From a virus (lineage: Duplodnaviria > Caudoviricetes): 39,590 bases of DNA. The position numbers were made by a program, and so were the translations under genes. Shown piece after piece: positions 1 through 7,483 of the stretch (its first letter is position 1; each line of letters opens with the position of its first letter). The stretch spans positions 1-39,590 of IMG/VR virus record IMGVR_UViG_3300023252_000179; one strand, 5' to 3'. The notes beneath the pieces are model-generated. The model was given only the letters and a program-made list of their open reading frames with translations. It did not search any database and was not told the origin of the DNA.

Positions 1-1161
1 TCATCCACTTGCAAATTGATTCATCGTATCAATAGATTTAATTTCATCCTTTTCAAATGAATGTACATATACTTTCAATATCGTATTAGGATCATCCCCA
101 AGTATTTTTGCTACTGTAACAAGTGTTTCACCGCGGGCAAGTAAAATAGAAGCAACGGTATGTCTTAAACCGTGAGGTGATATTCTTCGTAATTCATACT
201 TATTACAAATCATATCGATTGCATCCTCGACATAAGTCAAACCGATTGGGCTACAACCTTGTCGCGATATGAAAACAAAATCCTCATCATTGTGTTGCAT
301 GCTATTATTCCATTTCTTTTTTATACACCAAGCTTTATATGTTTTTAATTGGACGTATAATTCGTCATTCATACTGATTTTCCTATAACCATTTTCACTC
401 TTCGGTGGTCCTAGTCCAGTTCTAGTACGAGCTTTATTAATCGAAATAGACTTGGTTTTAAAATCAAGGTCTTTCCAAGTTAATCCCATCATTTCGCCTT
501 TACGCATACCTGTCATTGCTAAAGTTAAAATAGATGTATATCTAGTTGTAGGATCGTTTTCTTTCACGCATGATAGAAAATGTTTTAGTTCTTCCTCTGT
601 ATAAAAGTTATCTTTGTCACTGGTAGGTGCAGCACTAAAATCCATTTTCTTAAAGCGATCTTTGGGCAGGATTTCTTCATCAACAGCATAAGATAAAGCA
701 GACTTAAACACTCTAAATATTCCTTGAATGGTTGCACGTTTTAACCTATATGAAACTAACACATCAATCAATTCTCTTTGTAGAGTCATTTTAGTGAGTT
801 TTTGTAATTTGTAATGGCCAATAAGAGGTTTAATATGGTTATTATAAGACTCTTGATAAAGGATATACGTGCCAGGACGCCACACGCTTTTTTTCATTTC
901 AAACCAAATTTCCATCCATTGAGCCACGGTTAAATTTGCATTTTCGACATATCTATCATTTCCATCTAATACGTTTGCTTTTACTTCTATCAAAGCACGC
1001 TCAGCTGCTAGTTCAGTATCAAAACCTTGCTGAGATTTTTCCTTTCGCTTTCCAAATCGATCATAGTATTTATAGCGAAAAGCATACTTCTTTTCATTTT
1101 CTGAATCCTTGTACCAGTAAATGCAATCTTTTTTAGTAGTATAAAACTTTTTCCTAACCAT
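1..1161 (-). CDS. int: Tyrosine integrase with N-terminal arm-binding domain
   Basis: TGMRKGE and HGLRHT...Y catalytic motifs; start set at ATG 1161 behind GGAGG (in-frame upstream starts exist at 1215 and 1227). Confidence 0.95.
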   Translation of the reverse strand: MVRKKFYTTKKDCIYWYKDSENEKKYAFRYKYYDRFGKRKEKSQQGFDTELAAERALIEVKANVLDGNDRYVENANLTVAQWMEIWFEMKKSVWRPGTYILYQESYNNHIKPLIGHYKLQKLTKMTLQRELIDVLVSYRLKRATIQGIFRVFKSALSYAVDEEILPKDRFKKMDFSAAPTSDKDNFYTEEELKHFLSCVKENDPTTRYTSILTLAMTGMRKGEMMGLTWKDLDFKTKSISINKARTRTGLGPPKSENGYRKISMNDELYVQLKTYKAWCIKKKWNNSMQHNDEDFVFISRQGCSPIGLTYVEDAIDMICNKYELRRISPHGLRHTVASILLARGETLVTVAKILGDDPNTILKVYVHSFEKDEIKSIDTMNQFASG

Positions 1162-1245
1162 TGTGATTTCCTCCGTTTTAGCACGAGCAGGTACATTGAA
1201 GAAAATCGTTTGCATCACTCCTTTCAAATGTAAATATTTTAAATG

Positions 1246-1259
1246 GGAATATATGTTCT
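1246..1259 (-). promoter_or_regulatory. Candidate LexA (SOS) box upstream of int
   Basis: AGAACATATATTCC on the minus strand, one mismatch from the Bacillus GAAC-N4-GTTC core, next to a TAAAAT -10-like hexamer. Confidence 0.4.
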
Positions 1260-1270
1260 TTTTTTATGTA

Positions 1271-1717
1271 TTAAAATAGCCCCTTACATTTCAGTTTTAC
1301 CAGCTCTAGCGGTACGTTATGTAATGAAGCTATATCGTAAATAGTTTTTTGTTCATCGTAATCAAATAAATTTTCATCTGGTATTAAAAGATGAGCAGCA
1401 AAAGTATTTGCTTCTATCTCTACTTTATCAACAGAGAAGAACGTATTTGTTCTCATGAAAGGGGTGTTTAGTTTAGTATGTAAAATTGCGTGACCTAATT
1501 CATGAGCACAAACAATAAGTTGTTCTTCGATATTTAAGTTACTGTTGATAAAAATAAACCTATTACGTTTTTCGTATTGATAAAAACCTTTTATATCGGG
1601 CGGTAGATCCCAATAAAAAATTTCTATTTTTAAATATTTGGCTAACGAAAATGGATTCCGGGTACTGTACTTTTTATATAAAGCCCCTACTTTTTGTTTA
1701 ACCCACTCCATCCGCAT
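1271..1717 (-). CDS. immA: ImmA/IrrE-family metallopeptidase (anti-repressor protease)
   Basis: CAHELGH zincin motif and EIEANTFAAHLL; lies between repressor and integrase. Confidence 0.93.
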   Translation of the reverse strand: MRMEWVKQKVGALYKKYSTRNPFSLAKYLKIEIFYWDLPPDIKGFYQYEKRNRFIFINSNLNIEEQLIVCAHELGHAILHTKLNTPFMRTNTFFSVDKVEIEANTFAAHLLIPDENLFDYDEQKTIYDIASLHNVPLELVKLKCKGLF

Positions 1718-1731
1718 CCCCTCGAATCGTA

Positions 1732-2157
1732 TTAATCTTCTTTATCTCTATATTTATTCGGAGTGTACTTTTTATTGTTCTTCTTTGCTAGACGTACACC
1801 AAATTCCATGGCTTCTAACAAAGATTCTTTTGCTTCATCGCTCATCGGTTCACCATCAAAAAGTAGGCCAGTTGCAGAGGATAAATCCTCGCGAAGTTCT
1901 GCCATTCGTTTAGCTATATCACGTTCATCTTTAGATTCTTTATTAGTAGTATTGGTTGTCTTACCCAGTAGATAGTCACTAGGACAAGATAAAGCGATGG
2001 ACAATCTAGCGATATCTTCAGCGCTTGGTTCGGTGTAACCACGCTCCCAATTTGAAATAACTTGTGGTGAAACAGAAATTTTTTGAGCTAACTGCATTTG
2101 TGTGTAGCGCAACTTTTTTCGTTGTTCTTTAATACGAGAGCCTATTATATCACTCAT
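1732..2157 (-). CDS. XRE-family phage repressor (ImmR/CI-like)
   Basis: N-terminal HTH (TQMQLAQKISVSPQVISNWERG); no S24 autoprotease domain, consistent with cleavage by ImmA. Confidence 0.92.
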   Translation of the reverse strand: MSDIIGSRIKEQRKKLRYTQMQLAQKISVSPQVISNWERGYTEPSAEDIARLSIALSCPSDYLLGKTTNTTNKESKDERDIAKRMAELREDLSSATGLLFDGEPMSDEAKESLLEAMEFGVRLAKKNNKKYTPNKYRDKED

Positions 2158-2195
2158 TTAAACACCTCTTTTCTATAAGAGTAGAATACCCAAAA

Positions 2196-2300
2196 CTAAC
2201 GGAATTTGATATATTACTAACGGAATTTGAGAAATTAATTATAAAAACGGTTGACATTAACGGAATTCGTTAGTATATTGTTATTAACGGATTACGTTAG
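2196..2300. promoter_or_regulatory. Lysis-lysogeny switch: operator array and rightward sigA promoter
   Basis: TTGACA(2251-2256)-17-TATATT(2274-2279); palindromes TAACG-N5-CGTTA at 2258-2272 (in the promoter spacer) and 2285-2299; degenerate CTAACGGAATTTGA copies at 2196 and 2217. Confidence 0.88.
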
Positions 2301-2318
2301 TCGAAATGAGGTGATAAT

Positions 2319-2576
2319 ATGATTTATGAGAATGTAAAAAAAATACGCATGGCACGCGGTATAACCAAAAGACGTGTAGCTAAGGGTGTAAATGTAACAG
2401 AAATGACTTACGGTCGTATTGAAAGTGGAATTAGTAAATTGAGTGCAGAACACTTAAAAATTATAGCTACAATACTTGGTGTTCCAGTAGCAACTTTTTT
2501 TGATGACAAACTAACGGATTCCGTTATAAAAGAGATTTCTAGTATTTCATTTTCTAAAGAAAGGCAATTGGCATAA
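2319..2576 (+). CDS. Cro-like XRE HTH regulator
   Basis: HTH (VAKGVNVTEMTYGRIESG); first gene divergent from the repressor; RBS GAGGTG. Confidence 0.88.
   Translation: MIYENVKKIRMARGITKRRVAKGVNVTEMTYGRIESGISKLSAEHLKIIATILGVPVATFFDDKLTDSVIKEISSISFSKERQLA
2512..2526. promoter_or_regulatory. Distal repressor operator inside the cro-like gene
   Basis: TAACGGATTCCGTTA, the most symmetric copy of the switch palindrome. Confidence 0.75.
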
Positions 2577-2627
2577 TCAGACCATTACTTAGAAATTGGA
2601 ACGAATTTAAACACAGGAGGTTTTGCC

Positions 2628-3407
2628 ATGAAACACTTGCAAGTTATTCACAAACAAGTTGTATTAACGAAAAAATTTGAAGTATACGGATCTTTAGATA
2701 ATCCGTTGTTTTTAGCTAAGGATGTAGCTAGTTGGATTGAACATAGTGACACATCCAAAATGATTCGTTCAGTAGACGAGGATGAGAAGGTAAAGAATAA
2801 TGTTCCTACCCTTGGTGGATTACAAGAATCCTGGTTCCTGACAGAAGATGGTTTATATGAAGTGTTAATGCAATCACGTAAACCTATAGCAAAACAATTT
2901 AAAAAACAGGTCAAAACCATTTTGAAAGACATCCGCCTTAAAGGTGGCTATATCGCTACAACCGAAGATGACGATGAAATGACAATCTTAGCGAAAGGAT
3001 TTCTAATAGCTCAAAAAACTATCGAAAGTAACAAAAGAAAAATTGTTGAACAGCAAATGTTAATTGAAGAACAAAAACCTAAAGTTCTATTCGCAGAAGC
3101 TATCCAAGCAAGTAAAACAACTATTCTTATTGGCGAATATGCCAAAATCTTAAAGCAAAACGGTGTAGACATAGGAAAAAAAAGACTTTTCGAATGGCTT
3201 AGAGATAATGGCTATTTAATCAAACGAAAAGGTTCTGACTATAACACACCGACTCAAAAGAGTATGGAGTTAGGTTTATTCGAAATAAAAGAAACACCAA
3301 TTCATCACACTAGTGGCGAAATCAGCATTTCAAGAACTTCAAAAATAACAGGTAAAGGGCAATCCTACTTTATTAATAAGTTTTTGACAAAGGAGGTTGC
3401 CATATGA
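2628..3407 (+). CDS. Phage antirepressor (BRO-N + KilAC/ANT)
   Basis: PLFLAKDVA...LTEDGLYEVLMQSRKPIAKQFK (BRO-N); KPKVLFA...ITGKGQSYFINKF (KilAC). Confidence 0.93.
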   Translation: MKHLQVIHKQVVLTKKFEVYGSLDNPLFLAKDVASWIEHSDTSKMIRSVDEDEKVKNNVPTLGGLQESWFLTEDGLYEVLMQSRKPIAKQFKKQVKTILKDIRLKGGYIATTEDDDEMTILAKGFLIAQKTIESNKRKIVEQQMLIEEQKPKVLFAEAIQASKTTILIGEYAKILKQNGVDIGKKRLFEWLRDNGYLIKRKGSDYNTPTQKSMELGLFEIKETPIHHTSGEISISRTSKITGKGQSYFINKFLTKEVAI

Positions 3408-3625
3408 TCCAAGAGCAAATCGAAGATGATGTAACACTTTTCTGGGATATAGAAGACATCATTCGAGAAACCCGCTATAAAAAAACATTTCTAGAAGCGA
3501 ATCTGTTATGTGATCCGAGAATTAAACGGTTTGAAAGAAAGCCAAAACCAAGAAGTAAAAGAATATGGCTTGCAGGACCAACAAAAGAAACTATTAAAAA
3601 TATCATAATGAACGAATGGAATTAA
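3404..3625 (+). CDS. Small DNA-binding protein, probable excisionase-like
   Basis: 73 aa, wHTH-like pattern (WDIEDI...LLCDPR...KRIW), typical position, AGGAGG RBS. Confidence 0.55.
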   Translation: MIQEQIEDDVTLFWDIEDIIRETRYKKTFLEANLLCDPRIKRFERKPKPRSKRIWLAGPTKETIKNIIMNEWN

Positions 3626-3731
3626 AAATAAAAAAGCACGAGCAGGTGCAATTAAAACAGGAGAGGCCAGGGCAAATGGCCTCGTCAAACTACCAATCTA
3701 GTAAGAGGTTGGGGCAAATCAACCTCTTATC
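3626..3731 (-). ncRNA. Predicted antisense sRNA with two UUUGCCC-loop hairpins
   Basis: Hairpins 3663-3683 and 3702-3729; minus-strand TGGTCT-17-TATTAT (3763-3735) puts +1 at the base of the first hairpin; ends in a short GCAC/GTGC stem plus U-tract; complementary to several lytic mRNAs. Confidence 0.65.
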
Positions 3732-3810
3732 TCAATAATAAAGCTAACTTAGCAAAGAGACCATGCACAGAGTGCATATATGCAATTTAAGCATAAAAGG
3801 AGAGGGCAAT

Positions 3811-4089
3811 ATGGATATAGATGTTGGAAGTCTATTAAAAAAATGCCGTAAGAAGGCAAAGCTTTCACAGGAGGCATTCGCTGATTTAATGCACACGACT
3901 CAATCAACAATCAGCCGGATTGAAAAGAACATCATTGCATGCGAAGTAAGTTTCTTGCAAAAGGCTGCTAGATTAACAAATTCAGAGGATGTAGTGATTA
4001 CCGCATTATTCAGTGTAGATGCAATCGTACAGGTAGCAATGCAAATGCAAGTCACTTTTATAGGAGGATTATTCAATTGGATCCTTTAA
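3811..4089 (+). CDS. XRE-family HTH regulator
   Basis: LSQEAFADLMHTTQSTISRIE HTH; RBS AAGGAG before ATG 3811. Confidence 0.85.
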   Translation: MDIDVGSLLKKCRKKAKLSQEAFADLMHTTQSTISRIEKNIIACEVSFLQKAARLTNSEDVVITALFSVDAIVQVAMQMQVTFIGGLFNWIL

Positions 4090-4331
4090 AACTAATCAAC
4101 GACAAAATCATTAAAGAAAAAGCATGTATTGATGACTTAATTAAAGAAATTGCAATGCATACACAAAACGGACGATACCAGTTAGCAGCTGATCGTGGTT
4201 ATGACATGCAAAACTCAATCAATCGAATCCGACAGTTAGAAGGGCAAAAAGGGTTGTATTTAATAGCTCTTAAATATGTAGGAAAAGGAATAGACGTTGA
4301 GGTGGTGAAGAAACATGCGCATCAAGCCTAG
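4077..4331 (+). CDS. Hypothetical phage protein
   Basis: AGGAGG RBS, TTG start, overlaps neighbours. Confidence 0.7.
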   Translation: MDPLKLINDKIIKEKACIDDLIKEIAMHTQNGRYQLAADRGYDMQNSINRIRQLEGQKGLYLIALKYVGKGIDVEVVKKHAHQA

Positions 4332-4434
4332 AGCGTGGAGACATATGTCATTAAAGCAAAGGTTAATATATGTACATTTCTTTTGCGACAAGAAAGTATT
4401 AGAAAAGTTAAATGGCAATAAAAAAGCTGCTTAA
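4315..4434 (+). CDS. Small basic hypothetical protein (39 aa, MRIKPRAWRH...), not in the ORF track
   Basis: GAGGTG RBS, ATG 4315, TAA 4432-4434, overlaps the upstream gene end. Confidence 0.55.
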   Translation: MRIKPRAWRHMSLKQRLIYVHFFCDKKVLEKLNGNKKAA

Positions 4435-4538
4435 TCGCTGGAACGATTAAACAGCAGTGCGGTAATAGTCTACCCACATTATAACACAAAATCAGACGTT
4501 TGAAATATAAAGTGCTAAAGCACAAAGGGAGCCTAATT

Positions 4539-5276
4539 ATGACATTAGAAAATGCAATCAAAAGCGTATTAGAACAAAAGATGGTCGACGGCACAGTTGA
4601 AAAGTTGGTGGGAGAGAAGGTTGAACAAGGGATTGAACGTGCTCTAAATGATTTATTCGGATCATACGGCGACATCACAAAAGTAATAGAGAAGAAATTA
4701 AAAGATGTTATGGTGCCACAAATCGAAAGGCATGATTTTAGTAGATATTTAGTTAAATTGGATTCAGTTCTTACAGAACTTTCTAATGCTACTGCTAAAC
4801 AAAATAAAAAACTTTTGGATAACTTCGCAATTTTAATGAAAGATACGCCAAATAAAATTAATGCTTCAGAGATTTTTGAAAAGTGGATGAAGCTTTCTGC
4901 TGATGATATTGAGACGGAAGGTTTAGAAGTGGATTACGATGACCGTCCTACTTACGAAAGTGTAGAAGTATCACTTTCTTTCGAACAAATCGAGGGACGT
5001 TCGTGGTCATCATACGAAAACGGACAACTAATTTTTGAATGTGAACATGATGAACAATTGAATTTCATTGTGCCCTTACAGCGTTGGAAAACACTAGATG
5101 ATTATTGGACAATTACTGACCTACAAAATGTTGATATAACGTCCATTAAAAACATTAGTAAGTTTGAAGCATTCATTCGCTCATTAAAACAAAACTACTC
5201 AAAAATCTATGTAGATACTGAATACGAAACAGATCATTTATCTCCAACAGCCGAGCCAGAGGCTGAATGGTCTTAA
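4539..5276 (+). CDS. Hypothetical acidic phage protein
   Basis: Long ORF; start moved to ATG 4539 behind AAGGGAG. Confidence 0.75.
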   Translation: MTLENAIKSVLEQKMVDGTVEKLVGEKVEQGIERALNDLFGSYGDITKVIEKKLKDVMVPQIERHDFSRYLVKLDSVLTELSNATAKQNKKLLDNFAILMKDTPNKINASEIFEKWMKLSADDIETEGLEVDYDDRPTYESVEVSLSFEQIEGRSWSSYENGQLIFECEHDEQLNFIVPLQRWKTLDDYWTITDLQNVDITSIKNISKFEAFIRSLKQNYSKIYVDTEYETDHLSPTAEPEAEWS

Positions 5277-5289
5277 TAAAGAGACGTTT

Positions 5290-5375
5290 GCGAGTCGAAA
5301 CTCGCTCTCGTCAAGCAGCTTGTAAATGGTTGGTTAGCCGTTTCCTCTAAGGAATTTACAAGCTGCTTGATGGGA
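5290..5375 (+). ncRNA. Structured intergenic RNA element (22-bp stem closing a three-way junction)
   Basis: 5306-5327 pairs with 5354-5375 including G-U pairs; two inner mini-hairpins; extra hairpin 5290-5305. Confidence 0.5.
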
Positions 5376-5458
5376 AAAGCCATCAAAAAAACCACTGCGC
5401 GAACAGTGGCCTTAACAAATAAATATTTACATCATCATACCACAGGAGGGCAAAAAAG

Positions 5459-7483
5459 ATGAAGAAAATTGAGTTGGTAGTTTTAAAATTACGTGATTTT
5501 AAGGGCATTAAATCACTTGATATTCAATTAGACGGTGGCAATGCTGAAATTTTTGGTGACAACGAAGCAGGTAAAACTACAACATTTGATGCGTTTTTAT
5601 GGCTGTTGTTCGATAAGGATAGCAACAATAAAAAGGACTTTGCTATCAAGTCTTTAAACAGTGACGGATCCGAACAACACAACTTGGAGCATACGGTTGA
5701 AGGTACATTTTTAATTGATGGTGTGTTTGTTACTTTAAAGAAAATCTACAGAGAGGTTTGGACAAAAAAACGAGGTGCTGCAAACAAGGAATTTACAGGG
5801 CATACCGTAGACTACGCGGTGAATGATGTACCGCTAAATAAGAAAGAGTACACAGCCAAAGTTGCTGAGATTGTAGATGAAGAAAAATTCAAGCTCCTTA
5901 CATCGCCTACTTATTTTAACGAACAATTGAAGTGGCAAGAAAAAAGACAGCTGTTACTTGAAATCTGCGGTGACATTTCAGATGAAGATGTGATTGCATC
6001 AAATCAATCACTGGCTAAATTAAATGAACTTCTTAACGGTAAGTCGATGGAAGATATGAAGAAAATCATTACTAGCCAGAAAAAACAAATTAATGATGAG
6101 CTTGAAATGATTCCAGTACGTATTGATGAAATTAATAAAATGATGCCAGAAACGACTGTAGATATTGAAAAGATGCGTCAACAAGTTGAGCAAATCGAAG
6201 CTGATATGGATGAACTGCAGCAACAGAAAATCCGAGTGAAAAACGGTTCATCTGTACTTGATAAACAACGGCAGTTACAAGTGTTAGAAATGCACCAAAG
6301 CGACTTAAAACGCACTATTGAAGCTGATAGCATGCAAGAAATCAATAAGCTTCAAGTGCGTGTTCAGGAAGCGCAAGGCAACGTACAAATTATTCAATCT
6401 GAAATTAAACATAAAGAGAACTACAAAAACTCTAAGGAAAATGAGTTGCAACAGCTATCTAATGACATCCAGCGTACTGAAAATCAGTTAATTGAGTTAC
6501 GTAAAGATTGGGCACACCACAATAATACTCAATTTGAATATGAGGATAAATGCGAGTGTCCTACTTGTAAACAAGAACTACCTCTTGAACAAGTTGAGGC
6601 TGCTCGAAATGAAGCACAAGCGCAGTTTAATGAGGAAAAGGCTCGTAGGTTATCAGCTGTAAATGAAAAGGGAAAAACTTTAGCGCAAGAAAAAGAGCAA
6701 AAAGTAAATCGCCACAACGAAGTAAATGAAGATATTTTTAGCGCAAATATGGAATTGGATGCTGCTAAGAACAAGCTAGAAACAGCACAGAAAGAGTTAA
6801 GTAAATATCAAGATAAGTTACAGCAAGCCCAAACATCGGTGCCTGATGTGACAGTGACTGATGAATATAAATCTATCACTCTACAAATTGAAACATTACA
6901 AGCTGAAATTAAGCAGTTAAACGAACATGCTCATGAAGCTGTTGCTGGTATCGACGAAGAAATAGAAAAATTAAAGTTCATTCGTAACGGCTGCAACAAT
7001 GCGTTATCACAACACGCAAACATTGAAGCGAGTAAGGAGCGAATCATTGAGCTGGAAGATCAACAGGTGAAACTTGCTCAAGAGTACGAAAAGCTAGAGC
7101 AAACTACATTCCTTATCGAAGAATTTATCCGAACAAAGGTAAACATGCTCACTGAACGCATTAACAGCAAGTTCAAATATGCACGATTTAAGCTGTTTGA
7201 CACGCAGGTAAATGGTGGATTAAACGAGGTATGCGAAACGACATTTAAAGGCGTACCATACGGCACTGGCCTTAACAATGCAGCGAAAATCAATGTCGGC
7301 TTAGACATTATCAATACACTATCAGCACATTATGGCATCCTAGCACCTATTTTCGTGGATAATGCCGAAGCTGTAACCAAGTTTATAGATGTGGAAACTC
7401 AACTTATTAGCTTAGTTGTTTCTGAGAAGGACAAGCAGTTACGTGTTGAATTAGAACCAATCGAATACAAGGAGGCAATTTAA
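5459..7483 (+). CDS. SbcC/Rad50-like AAA ATPase with coiled coil
   Basis: Walker A GDNEAGKTT, CPTC zinc hook, PIFVDNAE Walker B; precedes RecT. Confidence 0.88.
   Translation: MKKIELVVLKLRDFKGIKSLDIQLDGGNAEIFGDNEAGKTTTFDAFLWLLFDKDSNNKKDFAIKSLNSDGSEQHNLEHTVEGTFLIDGVFVTLKKIYREVWTKKRGAANKEFTGHTVDYAVNDVPLNKKEYTAKVAEIVDEEKFKLLTSPTYFNEQLKWQEKRQLLLEICGDISDEDVIASNQSLAKLNELLNGKSMEDMKKIITSQKKQINDELEMIPVRIDEINKMMPETTVDIEKMRQQVEQIEADMDELQQQKIRVKNGSSVLDKQRQLQVLEMHQSDLKRTIEADSMQEINKLQVRVQEAQGNVQIIQSEIKHKENYKNSKENELQQLSNDIQRTENQLIELRKDWAHHNNTQFEYEDKCECPTCKQELPLEQVEAARNEAQAQFNEEKARRLSAVNEKGKTLAQEKEQKVNRHNEVNEDIFSANMELDAAKNKLETAQKELSKYQDKLQQAQTSVPDVTVTDEYKSITLQIETLQAEIKQLNEHAHEAVAGIDEEIEKLKFIRNGCNNALSQHANIEASKERIIELEDQQVKLAQEYEKLEQTTFLIEEFIRTKVNMLTERINSKFKYARFKLFDTQVNGGLNEVCETTFKGVPYGTGLNNAAKINVGLDIINTLSAHYGILAPIFVDNAEAVTKFIDVETQLISLVVSEKDKQLRVELEPIEYKEAI

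What the first reader, a model, noticed from the sequence alone, without database searches (positions are those of the whole stretch)
1159..1207. Integrase SD is locked in a hairpin whose loop is complementary to the early lytic transcript
Seen: on int mRNA, GAUUUUCUUC (1207-1198) can form 10 bp with GGAGGAAAUC (1174-1165), hiding the SD. The 23-nt loop covers 1180-1195 (plus strand AGCACGAGCAGGTACA), which recurs at 3635-3650 as AGCACGAGCAGGTGCA just after the xis-like gene. The one difference gives a G-U pair when the plus-strand lytic RNA binds int mRNA. Inference: the lytic transcript opens the hairpin and couples Int translation to xis expression, while the antisense sRNA, whose 3' end mimics the int loop, would compete. 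One ~100-bp locus would then regulate from both strands.
Basis: partly seen in the sequence, partly recalled or inferred. Interest (0 to 1): 0.85.

Follow-up and report, generated by a model that had tools for sequence, protein, structure and literature searches.

The report
Two RNA keys unlock phage integrase
This Lysinibacillus prophage and dozens of relatives carry a predicted hairpin over the integrase ribosome-binding site and a complementary sequence right after an excisionase-like gene, and relatives with intact ends carry a second one just across the attachment site, so these transcripts likely switch integrase production on when the phage must excise or integrate.

Summary
In 61 of 85 distinct Bacillales int leaders, the loop of a predicted SD-hiding hairpin recurs 2-26 nt after the stop of a winged-helix xis-like gene, oriented so that lytic RNA pairs with int mRNA (3 of 85 on the other strand). 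The sequence changes between phages but stays matched, isolated mismatches favour G-U pairs 18:4, and no match covers the SD. Modelled SD access in the window rises from 0.06 to 0.92. New here: a second complementary stretch lies just past the att core on the int-sense strand in 15 of 16 prophage far ends and in cultured phages Spoks and phi575, mostly followed by a terminator. int read-through would reach it only in the circular attP form. Best model: Int translation is locked in lysogens, unlocked by the attP key for integration and by the xis key for excision, a positive mirror of lambda sib. All evidence is computational; the window lacks its att ends. The competing antisense sRNA is unsupported. 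The scan noted the xis key before on other DNA (e1-10058858). Ten paper searches and Rfam found no description.

The parts
1..1161 (-). Tyrosine integrase, 386 aa from ATG 1161-1159; its stop is the first codon of the window, so attL is outside the window
   Evidence: phrog_1 3e-66; Pfam Arm-DNA-bind_4, SAM_3, Phage_integrase; 81-93% identical to full-length Lysinibacillus integrases
1165..1174 (-). 3' arm of the lock hairpin, holds the SD GGAGG (1174-1170), 8 nt before the ATG
   Evidence: sequence; fold
1198..1207 (-). 5' anti-SD arm of the lock hairpin
   Evidence: fold; own arms pair better than foreign arms in 57 of 61 loci, control stretch no effect
1180..1195 (-). Target in the hairpin loop: 4-bp apical stem 1181-1194 with C-rich 6-nt loop 1185-1190
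   Evidence: apical stem covaries in 42 aligned leaders, 22 two-sided changes vs 10.9 shuffled
1213..1224 (-). Upstream SD-like AAAGGAGTG with overlapping ATG 1215; not the conserved int start, possibly a ribosome standby or stabilising site (inference)
   Evidence: present in 31 of 61 loci; ATG open in frame to int in 4 of 23
1247..1258 (-). LexA/DinR-like box (consensus recalled) upstream of the int leader
   Evidence: 22 of 85 leaders vs 4 of 85 in-gene controls
1271..2157 (-). ImmA-like metalloprotease (1271-1717) and repressor (1732-2157)
2193..2301 (+). Lytic promoter (2251-2279, 11 of 12 consensus) among repeated operator-like AACGGAATT sites
2319..3407 (+). Cro-like HTH (2319-2576) and antirepressor (2628-3407); no terminator-like site on + between 2270 and 3660
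3404..3625 (+). Xis-like protein, 73 aa, MerR-type winged helix
   Evidence: model pLDDT 86; TorI Z 5.5 (rmsd 3.1, 61 aligned), GIsul2 Xis 5.3 (2.6, 56), Pukovnik Xis 5.1 (2.3, 54), tied with MerR regulators; weak DUF771 hits in 8 of 60 members
3635..3650 (+). Key 1 (post-xis trigger): complement of the int loop, 4-bp stem with GAGCAG loop predicted fully unpaired
3663..3729 (+). Two hairpins with GGGCAA(A) loops after the trigger (3663-3683, 3702-3729); role not established
   Evidence: z -5.2 for 3600-3815; GGGCAA within 250 nt in 21 of 61 loci

Best explanation
The integrase mRNA is predicted to fold a hairpin over its ribosome-binding site, and two phage-made RNA stretches complementary to its loop likely open it: one right after the excisionase-like gene and, in relatives with intact ends, one just across the attachment site. 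Steps: (1) shown in sequence: lock, key 1 and key 2 exist, match within each element and change together between elements. (2) Predicted: two small stem-loops with complementary 6-nt loops kiss, the duplex extends to 13-32 bp over the loop and often the anti-SD arm, stops short of the SD, and the outer stem melts. (3) Inferred: after infection or excision the genome is circular, int transcription runs through attP into key 2 and ends at the terminator behind it, so Int is made without Xis and the phage integrates. (4) Inferred: integration moves key 2 to the far end of the prophage and the repressor silences the lytic operon, so int mRNA stays untranslated in the lysogen. (5) Inferred: on induction the cro-ant-xis transcript brings key 1, so Int appears together with Xis and the prophage excises.
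For: Same-strand copy of the leader in 61 of 85 distinct leaders vs 3 of 85 on the other strand, 99th-percentile shuffle threshold; two more positives lay beyond the fetched flank. All 61 begin 2-26 nt after the stop of the xis-like gene, 1.1-7.5 kb from int. 43 distinct 12-mers among them; nearest-neighbour swaps: own partner better 40, worse 1, tie 5 (partly circular). Isolated mismatches 18 G-U-compatible vs 4 reverse, Fisher 2e-5; 16 vs 4 distinct contexts, p 0.006; matched-segment mirror test 20 vs 9, p 0.009. No match overlaps the SD by 2 nt or more in 61 of 61; 28 cover an anti-SD base. Modelled SD access rises in 54 of 61; window 0.06 to 0.92, -17.3 kcal/mol. Key 2: 15 of 16 far ends beat all 20 random windows, other strand 1 of 16; Spoks and phi575 carry it past attP; real beats mirror 13 vs 3, p 0.013; terminator within 140 nt behind in 11 of 16 plus both phages vs 7 of 128 background; no sigma-A-like promoter just before it in 0 of 16, background 57 of 480. 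The L008 key 2 (int 92% identical) opens the window's own leader in the model, 0.06 to 0.92.
Against: No RNA, ribosome or reporter data. Key 2 cannot be seen in the window, which lacks both att ends. ViennaRNA forbids kissing complexes, so SD opening is partly built into the dimer model. The mirror test over the whole 52-nt region was null (32 vs 29, p 0.41). RNAalifold gave no consensus on the sequence alignment. Predicted SD pairing tracks the copy only loosely: 46 of 57 well-paired vs 15 of 28 weakly paired leaders. L065 and L069 keep an altered key 1 but no lock. L004, L049 and L055 also carry arm plus key on the attL side, so key 2 would be read in those lysogens; the L055 far-end key is degraded. 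6 of 16 have a terminator-like hairpin between core and key 2. Loci are related, so p values overstate independence.
Confidence: 0.72

Rival explanations
1. RNA pairing activates int, but key 2 is a separate small RNA from a promoter in the att arm (or a host promoter), perhaps shut off by Int bound at the adjacent arm-type repeats, rather than the 3' end of the int mRNA.
For: 6 of 16 have a terminator-like hairpin between core and key 2; key 2 follows GGGG arm-like repeats closely; attL-side copies in 3 loci.
Against: 0 of 16 and neither cultured phage has a sigma-A-like promoter in the 90 nt before key 2, below background; no terminator between int stop and key 2 in Spoks or between genome end and key 2 in phi575.
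Confidence: 0.12
2. The three copies are DNA sites for a protein (Xis, Int arm domain or a repressor) that controls int and xis transcription and att geometry; RNA pairing is incidental.
For: Key 2 lies next to arm-like repeats; excisionases that also act as transcription regulators are known (recalled); the neighbour has a winged-helix fold.
Against: Orientation follows the presumed transcript at both distal sites, which are opposite relative to int; G-U bias; matches of 25-37 nt into the anti-SD arm; bulged variants that keep pairing; key 2 lies outside the arm repeats, not between arm and core.
Confidence: 0.08
3. The pairing is real but represses int: the duplex recruits RNase III or blocks the 30S entry edge, keeping Int low during lytic growth.
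For: Duplex ends a median 19 nt before the start codon, near the ribosome footprint; 16-30 bp duplexes can be RNase III substrates (recalled); lambda lowers int during lytic growth (PMC5300877, passages).
Against: No match covers the SD in 61 of 61; the SD is already predicted paired in 60 of 61 MFE folds without the key; excision needs Int when Xis is made.
Confidence: 0.05
4. The int-sense copy after xis is the 3' end of a minus-strand sRNA that acts as decoy or antisense to the lytic RNA.
For: T-rich tail behind the copy in 46 of 61; promoter-like site pointing at it in 21 of 61.
Against: Hairpin median -3.5 kcal/mol, 0 of 61 meet both terminator criteria; the other strand has such promoters in 14 of 61; no minus-strand promoter near 3700-3900 in the window; the T-run is also simply the A-rich spacer after the xis stop.
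Confidence: 0.03

Closest known systems
Lambda sib retroregulation of int (PMC5300877, passages; Schindler and Echols 1981 seen only as a reference there)
   Same: An element downstream of int controls Int output; that it lies across att and is removed by integration is recalled, not read. Int and Xis are co-ordinated for excision.
   Different: sib lowers int mRNA; here the across-att element would raise translation. Here int and xis are on divergent transcripts and are linked by base pairing, and there is no sign of a CII-type pI promoter test.
[quoted passage not shown]
   Same: A prophage RNA binds a translationally inactive prophage transcript in trans and activates it.
   Different: IsrK is a discrete sRNA from the same locus as its target and controls an antiterminator; here the keys are segments of longer transcripts 1-48 kb away and the target is the integrase.
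P1/P7 c4 antisense RNA (PMC8201110, passages; c4-a1b1 alignment in PMC2864571 supplement)
   Same: Phage RNA with short complementarity to distant sites that co-vary and set specificity (co-variation recalled).
   Different: c4 regulates the antirepressor and is recalled to repress; no Rfam c4 match here.
Anti-antisense activators (DsrA/RprA on rpoS, RNAIII on hla) and synthetic loop-initiated riboregulators (all recalled)
   Same: Opening an SD-sequestering hairpin by pairing upstream of the SD.
   Different: Those are host sRNAs or engineered parts; none is tied to recombination state.
S. aureus 40-bp int UTR / sigma-H promoter (PMC2869324, passages) and Lacto-int motif (PMC2864571, table and supplement hits)
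   Same: Conserved structured sequence upstream of Firmicutes phage integrases.
   Different: The first is shown to be a promoter; Lacto-int rows show a hairpin upstream of, not over, the SD. Neither was linked in what I read to a distal complementary copy.

Membership tests
Lambda-type sib retroregulation | Regulatory element downstream of int, across att, on the int-sense strand | tested here: met
   15 of 16 prophage far ends and 2 cultured phages; not testable in the window itself
Lambda-type sib retroregulation | int and xis co-transcribed from one lytic promoter | tested here: not met
   int is on the minus strand, xis-like gene on the plus strand
Lambda-type sib retroregulation | Acts by nuclease-driven decay of int mRNA | not testable with these tools
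   needs RNA stability assays
c4-type phage antisense RNA | Match to the Rfam c4 model | tested here: not met
   no match at E up to 5 in window 1-6000 or at gathering score in 5 loci
c4-type phage antisense RNA | Target is the antirepressor operon | tested here: not met
   the only other copy in the window is the int leader
Translation-activating antisense RNA (anti-antisense type) | Target mRNA has a conserved SD-sequestering stem | tested here: met
   own arms pair better than foreign arms in 57 of 61; predicted only; RNAalifold on the raw alignment failed
Translation-activating antisense RNA (anti-antisense type) | Regulator pairs upstream of the SD, not on it | tested here: met
   61 of 61
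Translation-activating antisense RNA (anti-antisense type) | Regulator is expressed and raises translation | not testable with these tools
   needs reporter or toeprint data
Recombination directionality factor (Xis) | Small MerR-type winged helix | tested here: met
   fold shared with MerR regulators, so not specific
Recombination directionality factor (Xis) | Required for excision, binds att | not testable with these tools
   inferred from fold and position only
Int arm-type DNA site | Occurs in both att arms | tested here: not met
   0 of 21 int-proximal flanks hold a copy above threshold; the GGGG repeats, not this motif, occur in both arms

The most novel reading that the evidence does not exclude
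A clade of Firmicutes phages and islets senses its own recombination state with RNA: the int mRNA carries its own activator only when attP is intact, and the xis mRNA carries a second one, giving a protein-free two-key switch with dozens of natural, largely orthogonal lock-key pairs that would also insulate co-resident prophages from each other.
Probability: 0.55. Interest if true: 0.93.

Novelty: new variant of a known kind. Interest (0 to 1): 0.87.

Why it matters
Where int sits in the repressor's operon, as in many Gram-positive prophages, it is unclear how the phage keeps Int low in the lysogen yet supplies it for both integration and excision. This architecture gives a concrete, cheaply testable answer: a translational lock with one key per reaction, the integration key being physically uncoupled by integration itself. 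It would be the positive counterpart of lambda sib, an example of mRNA 3' segments acting as activators, and a natural library of loop-initiated riboregulators. Int activation also gates prophage stability and horizontal transfer in these hosts.

Tried and rejected
Rfam: nothing real. RNAalifold on a MAFFT alignment of 42 leaders: no structure, replaced by alignment-free cross-pairing. First scan with G-U-weighted scoring was not used for the mismatch test because it favours the result; neutral scoring was used. Whole-region mirror test null. Four soil metatranscriptome runs held only patchy low-depth contigs and say nothing on strand or expression. Foldseek and PDB sequence search gave no significant match for the xis-like protein. 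ATG 1215 as the int start: rejected. More distant int/xis pairs lack key 1: 0 of 24 with int profile E of 2e-76 or weaker, against 4 of 7 at 1e-90 or stronger, of 41 loci examined, 10 not scorable; T12, BMBtp16, SEsuP-1 and YPHTV-1 negative. Key 2 could not be tested in L001, L002 (records hold one att core only) or L006 (contig break). A degenerate pattern search for key 2 in 5 genomes was too strict and missed it. Two slips dropped: the L054 attL value came from the L055 flank (true flank), and the 'phi575 xis' row paired the leader with itself. Whether the attL-side copies are tandem elements was not settled (the BLAST step failed).

Full report
Setting. The window is a partial temperate phage of Lysinibacillus type: the integrase is 81-93% identical to full-length proteins in Lysinibacillus genomes. 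The order is int - ImmA-like protease - repressor on the minus strand, then cro - antirepressor - a 73-aa ORF - HTH on the plus strand. The contig starts at the int stop codon and its last ORF runs to the final base, so neither att end is present.

Observation. The 10-bp stem (1207-1198 with 1174-1165), the 23-nt loop and the 15-of-16 repeat at 3635-3650 are as described. The repeat is beyond chance. The hairpin alone is marginal (45 of 1000 shuffles). Both RNAs also fold a 4-bp stem with complementary 6-nt loops, CUGCUC in the leader and GAGCAG in the lytic RNA, the usual geometry of a kissing start (recalled).

Survey of key 1. I took the window, 8 close loci, phage Spoks and 80 genome loci with int 31-63% identical. 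Of 90, one had no callable start, one too little flank and three had duplicate leaders, leaving 85; three starts were corrected by hand. With neutral scoring, 61 of 85 have a same-strand copy above the 99th percentile of shuffles, 3 of 85 on the other strand. L001 and L003, counted negative, have the copy just beyond the flank held. All 61 copies start 2-26 nt after the stop of a small gene whose products align as one family with nearly invariant D, R, K, R (the profile check is circular). Its model is a MerR-type winged helix, matching excisionases and MerR regulators alike, so 'xis-like' rests on fold and position. The sequences differ widely (43 distinct 12-mers; Spoks and Staphylococcus phage phi575 have wholly different loops) yet match within each element. 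The module is clade-limited.

RNA or DNA. Isolated mismatches are 18 of the kind that give G-U in a lytic-RNA:int-mRNA duplex and 4 of the reverse kind (Fisher 2e-5; 16 vs 4 distinct contexts). Within matched segments the real duplex beats its mirror 20 to 9; over the whole 52-nt region the test was null, 32 to 29. In the window the single mismatch lies in the apical stem and does not by itself tell the strand. No copy above threshold lies in 21 int-proximal att flanks.

Activation or repression. The SD is paired to upstream bases in 60 of 61 MFE folds; own arms pair better than foreign ones in 57 of 61, a control stretch shows no such effect. Matches end a median 19 nt before the start and never cover the SD, although the scan window included it; 28 of 61 reach an anti-SD base. 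Modelled SD access rises in 54 of 61 and falls in 2; window 0.06 to 0.92. The model cannot form kissing complexes, so it shows that the duplex outcompetes the stem, not the pathway. Several leaders without the lock also lack the key (L057, L075, L078, L081, L111), but L065 and L069 keep an altered key, and the link between predicted SD pairing and the copy is loose (46 of 57 vs 15 of 28). ATG 1215 is open in frame to int in only 4 of 23 loci.

Key 2. Two xis-less islets had a leader-complementary stretch on the int-sense strand at their far end. In Spoks, whose att core is given in PMC13245101 (passages), the order on the int-sense strand is int stop, core, GGGG repeats, an 11-nt exact complement of the loop with flanking pairs, terminator. 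phi575 has a 14-of-14 complement 242 nt past the genome join. I fetched far ends for 17 of the 61 positives, chosen for long contigs; 16 had a core found as a direct repeat. In 15 of 16 the best duplex in the 420 nt past the core, at 147-273 nt, beats all 20 random windows; the other strand does so in 1 of 16. Real beats mirror 13 to 3, and a terminator follows in 11 of 16 against 7 of 128 background windows. No sigma-A-like promoter lies just upstream in any. Against the clean model: 6 of 16 have a terminator-like hairpin between core and key, and L004, L049, L055 carry arm plus key on the attL side too. L008, with int 92% identical and the same loop, has key 2, and it opens the window's leader in the model; for the window's own phage key 2 is therefore inferred.

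Mechanism. Lysogen: int mRNA locked, no key in reach. Infection or circular state: read-through across attP supplies key 2, in cis or trans, giving Int without Xis. Induction: the lytic transcript, with no terminator-like site between promoter and key, supplies Xis and key 1 together. Existence, placement and co-variation of the parts are shown; pairing and opening are predicted; the life-cycle roles are inferred.

Known or new. Rfam gave nothing. Ten full-text searches listed no paper describing this. I read passages of PMC2869324, PMC8637289, PMC5737381, PMC8040213, PMC2864571 (plus supplement hits), PMC5300877, PMC13245101 and PMC8201110, and the abstract and outline of PMC4825925. The library lacks most subscription papers, and the supplement of PMC5737381, which lists integrase-linked motifs as I recall, could not be read, so a prior note on the leader hairpin is not excluded. 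The scan itself noted key 1 on another genome (e1-10058858); that is a repeat of the idea, not support, and its short text does not mention an attP key (one search found no note on it). It works like an anti-antisense activator joined to sib-like retroregulation with the sign reversed, and belongs to neither family as defined.

Verdict. Real, widespread, co-evolving, and larger than first reported. Two-key activation model 0.72; RNA activation of int in some form about 0.84. Interest 0.87.

Noticed in passing
window 3663-3729 (+), and 21 of 61 related loci: Runs of hairpins with GGGCAA(A) loops follow the xis-like gene, also where key 1 is absent (L057, L078, L081, L111); they could be antitermination or protein-binding RNA elements. 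No Rfam match.
   Followed up: partly
window about 3742-3751, 17 of 61 loci: Palindrome-like AAG.TA.CTT before the next HTH gene, a likely operator.
   Followed up: no
window 1247-1258 (-): LexA-like box before int in 22 of 85 leaders, including leaders without the hairpin where AAAGGAGTGA is itself the SD; the lock may have been inserted behind an older SD.
   Followed up: partly
L119:217 and L122 (5908 in int-sense numbering): Small xis-less islets with broken or intact int keep key 2 at their far end among GGGG repeats; this led to the attP finding.
   Followed up: yes
L007 end, L214, L215, L216: An attR-like arm with a key (matching in three, diverged in L216) sits directly downstream of attL, suggesting scars of earlier integrants or tandem insertions.
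   Followed up: partly
L060, L064, L066, L117: 15-20 kb elements with the same lock and both keys; probably satellites or islands rather than full prophages.
   Followed up: no
L008, L004, L049, L002 att region: att repeats of about 95-137 bp that overlap the start of a coding frame on the opposite strand, much longer than usual cores.
   Followed up: no
L013:6992-7012 (Streptococcus phage T12): Record annotates a 'putative integrase regulatory element 1' before int; no distal copy found in 7 kb upstream.
   Followed up: partly
L127 (ON854455.1): Deposited as a Halomonas phage but its genes (Abh, CwlK, SpoIIIE-like, xis family hit) look like those of a Bacillales phage.
   Followed up: no
window 5306-5375 and 4426-4455: Strong inverted repeats (22-nt arms; 13-bp stem with T run on the minus strand) between early genes; relatives of the second recur in metatranscriptome contigs.
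   Followed up: no
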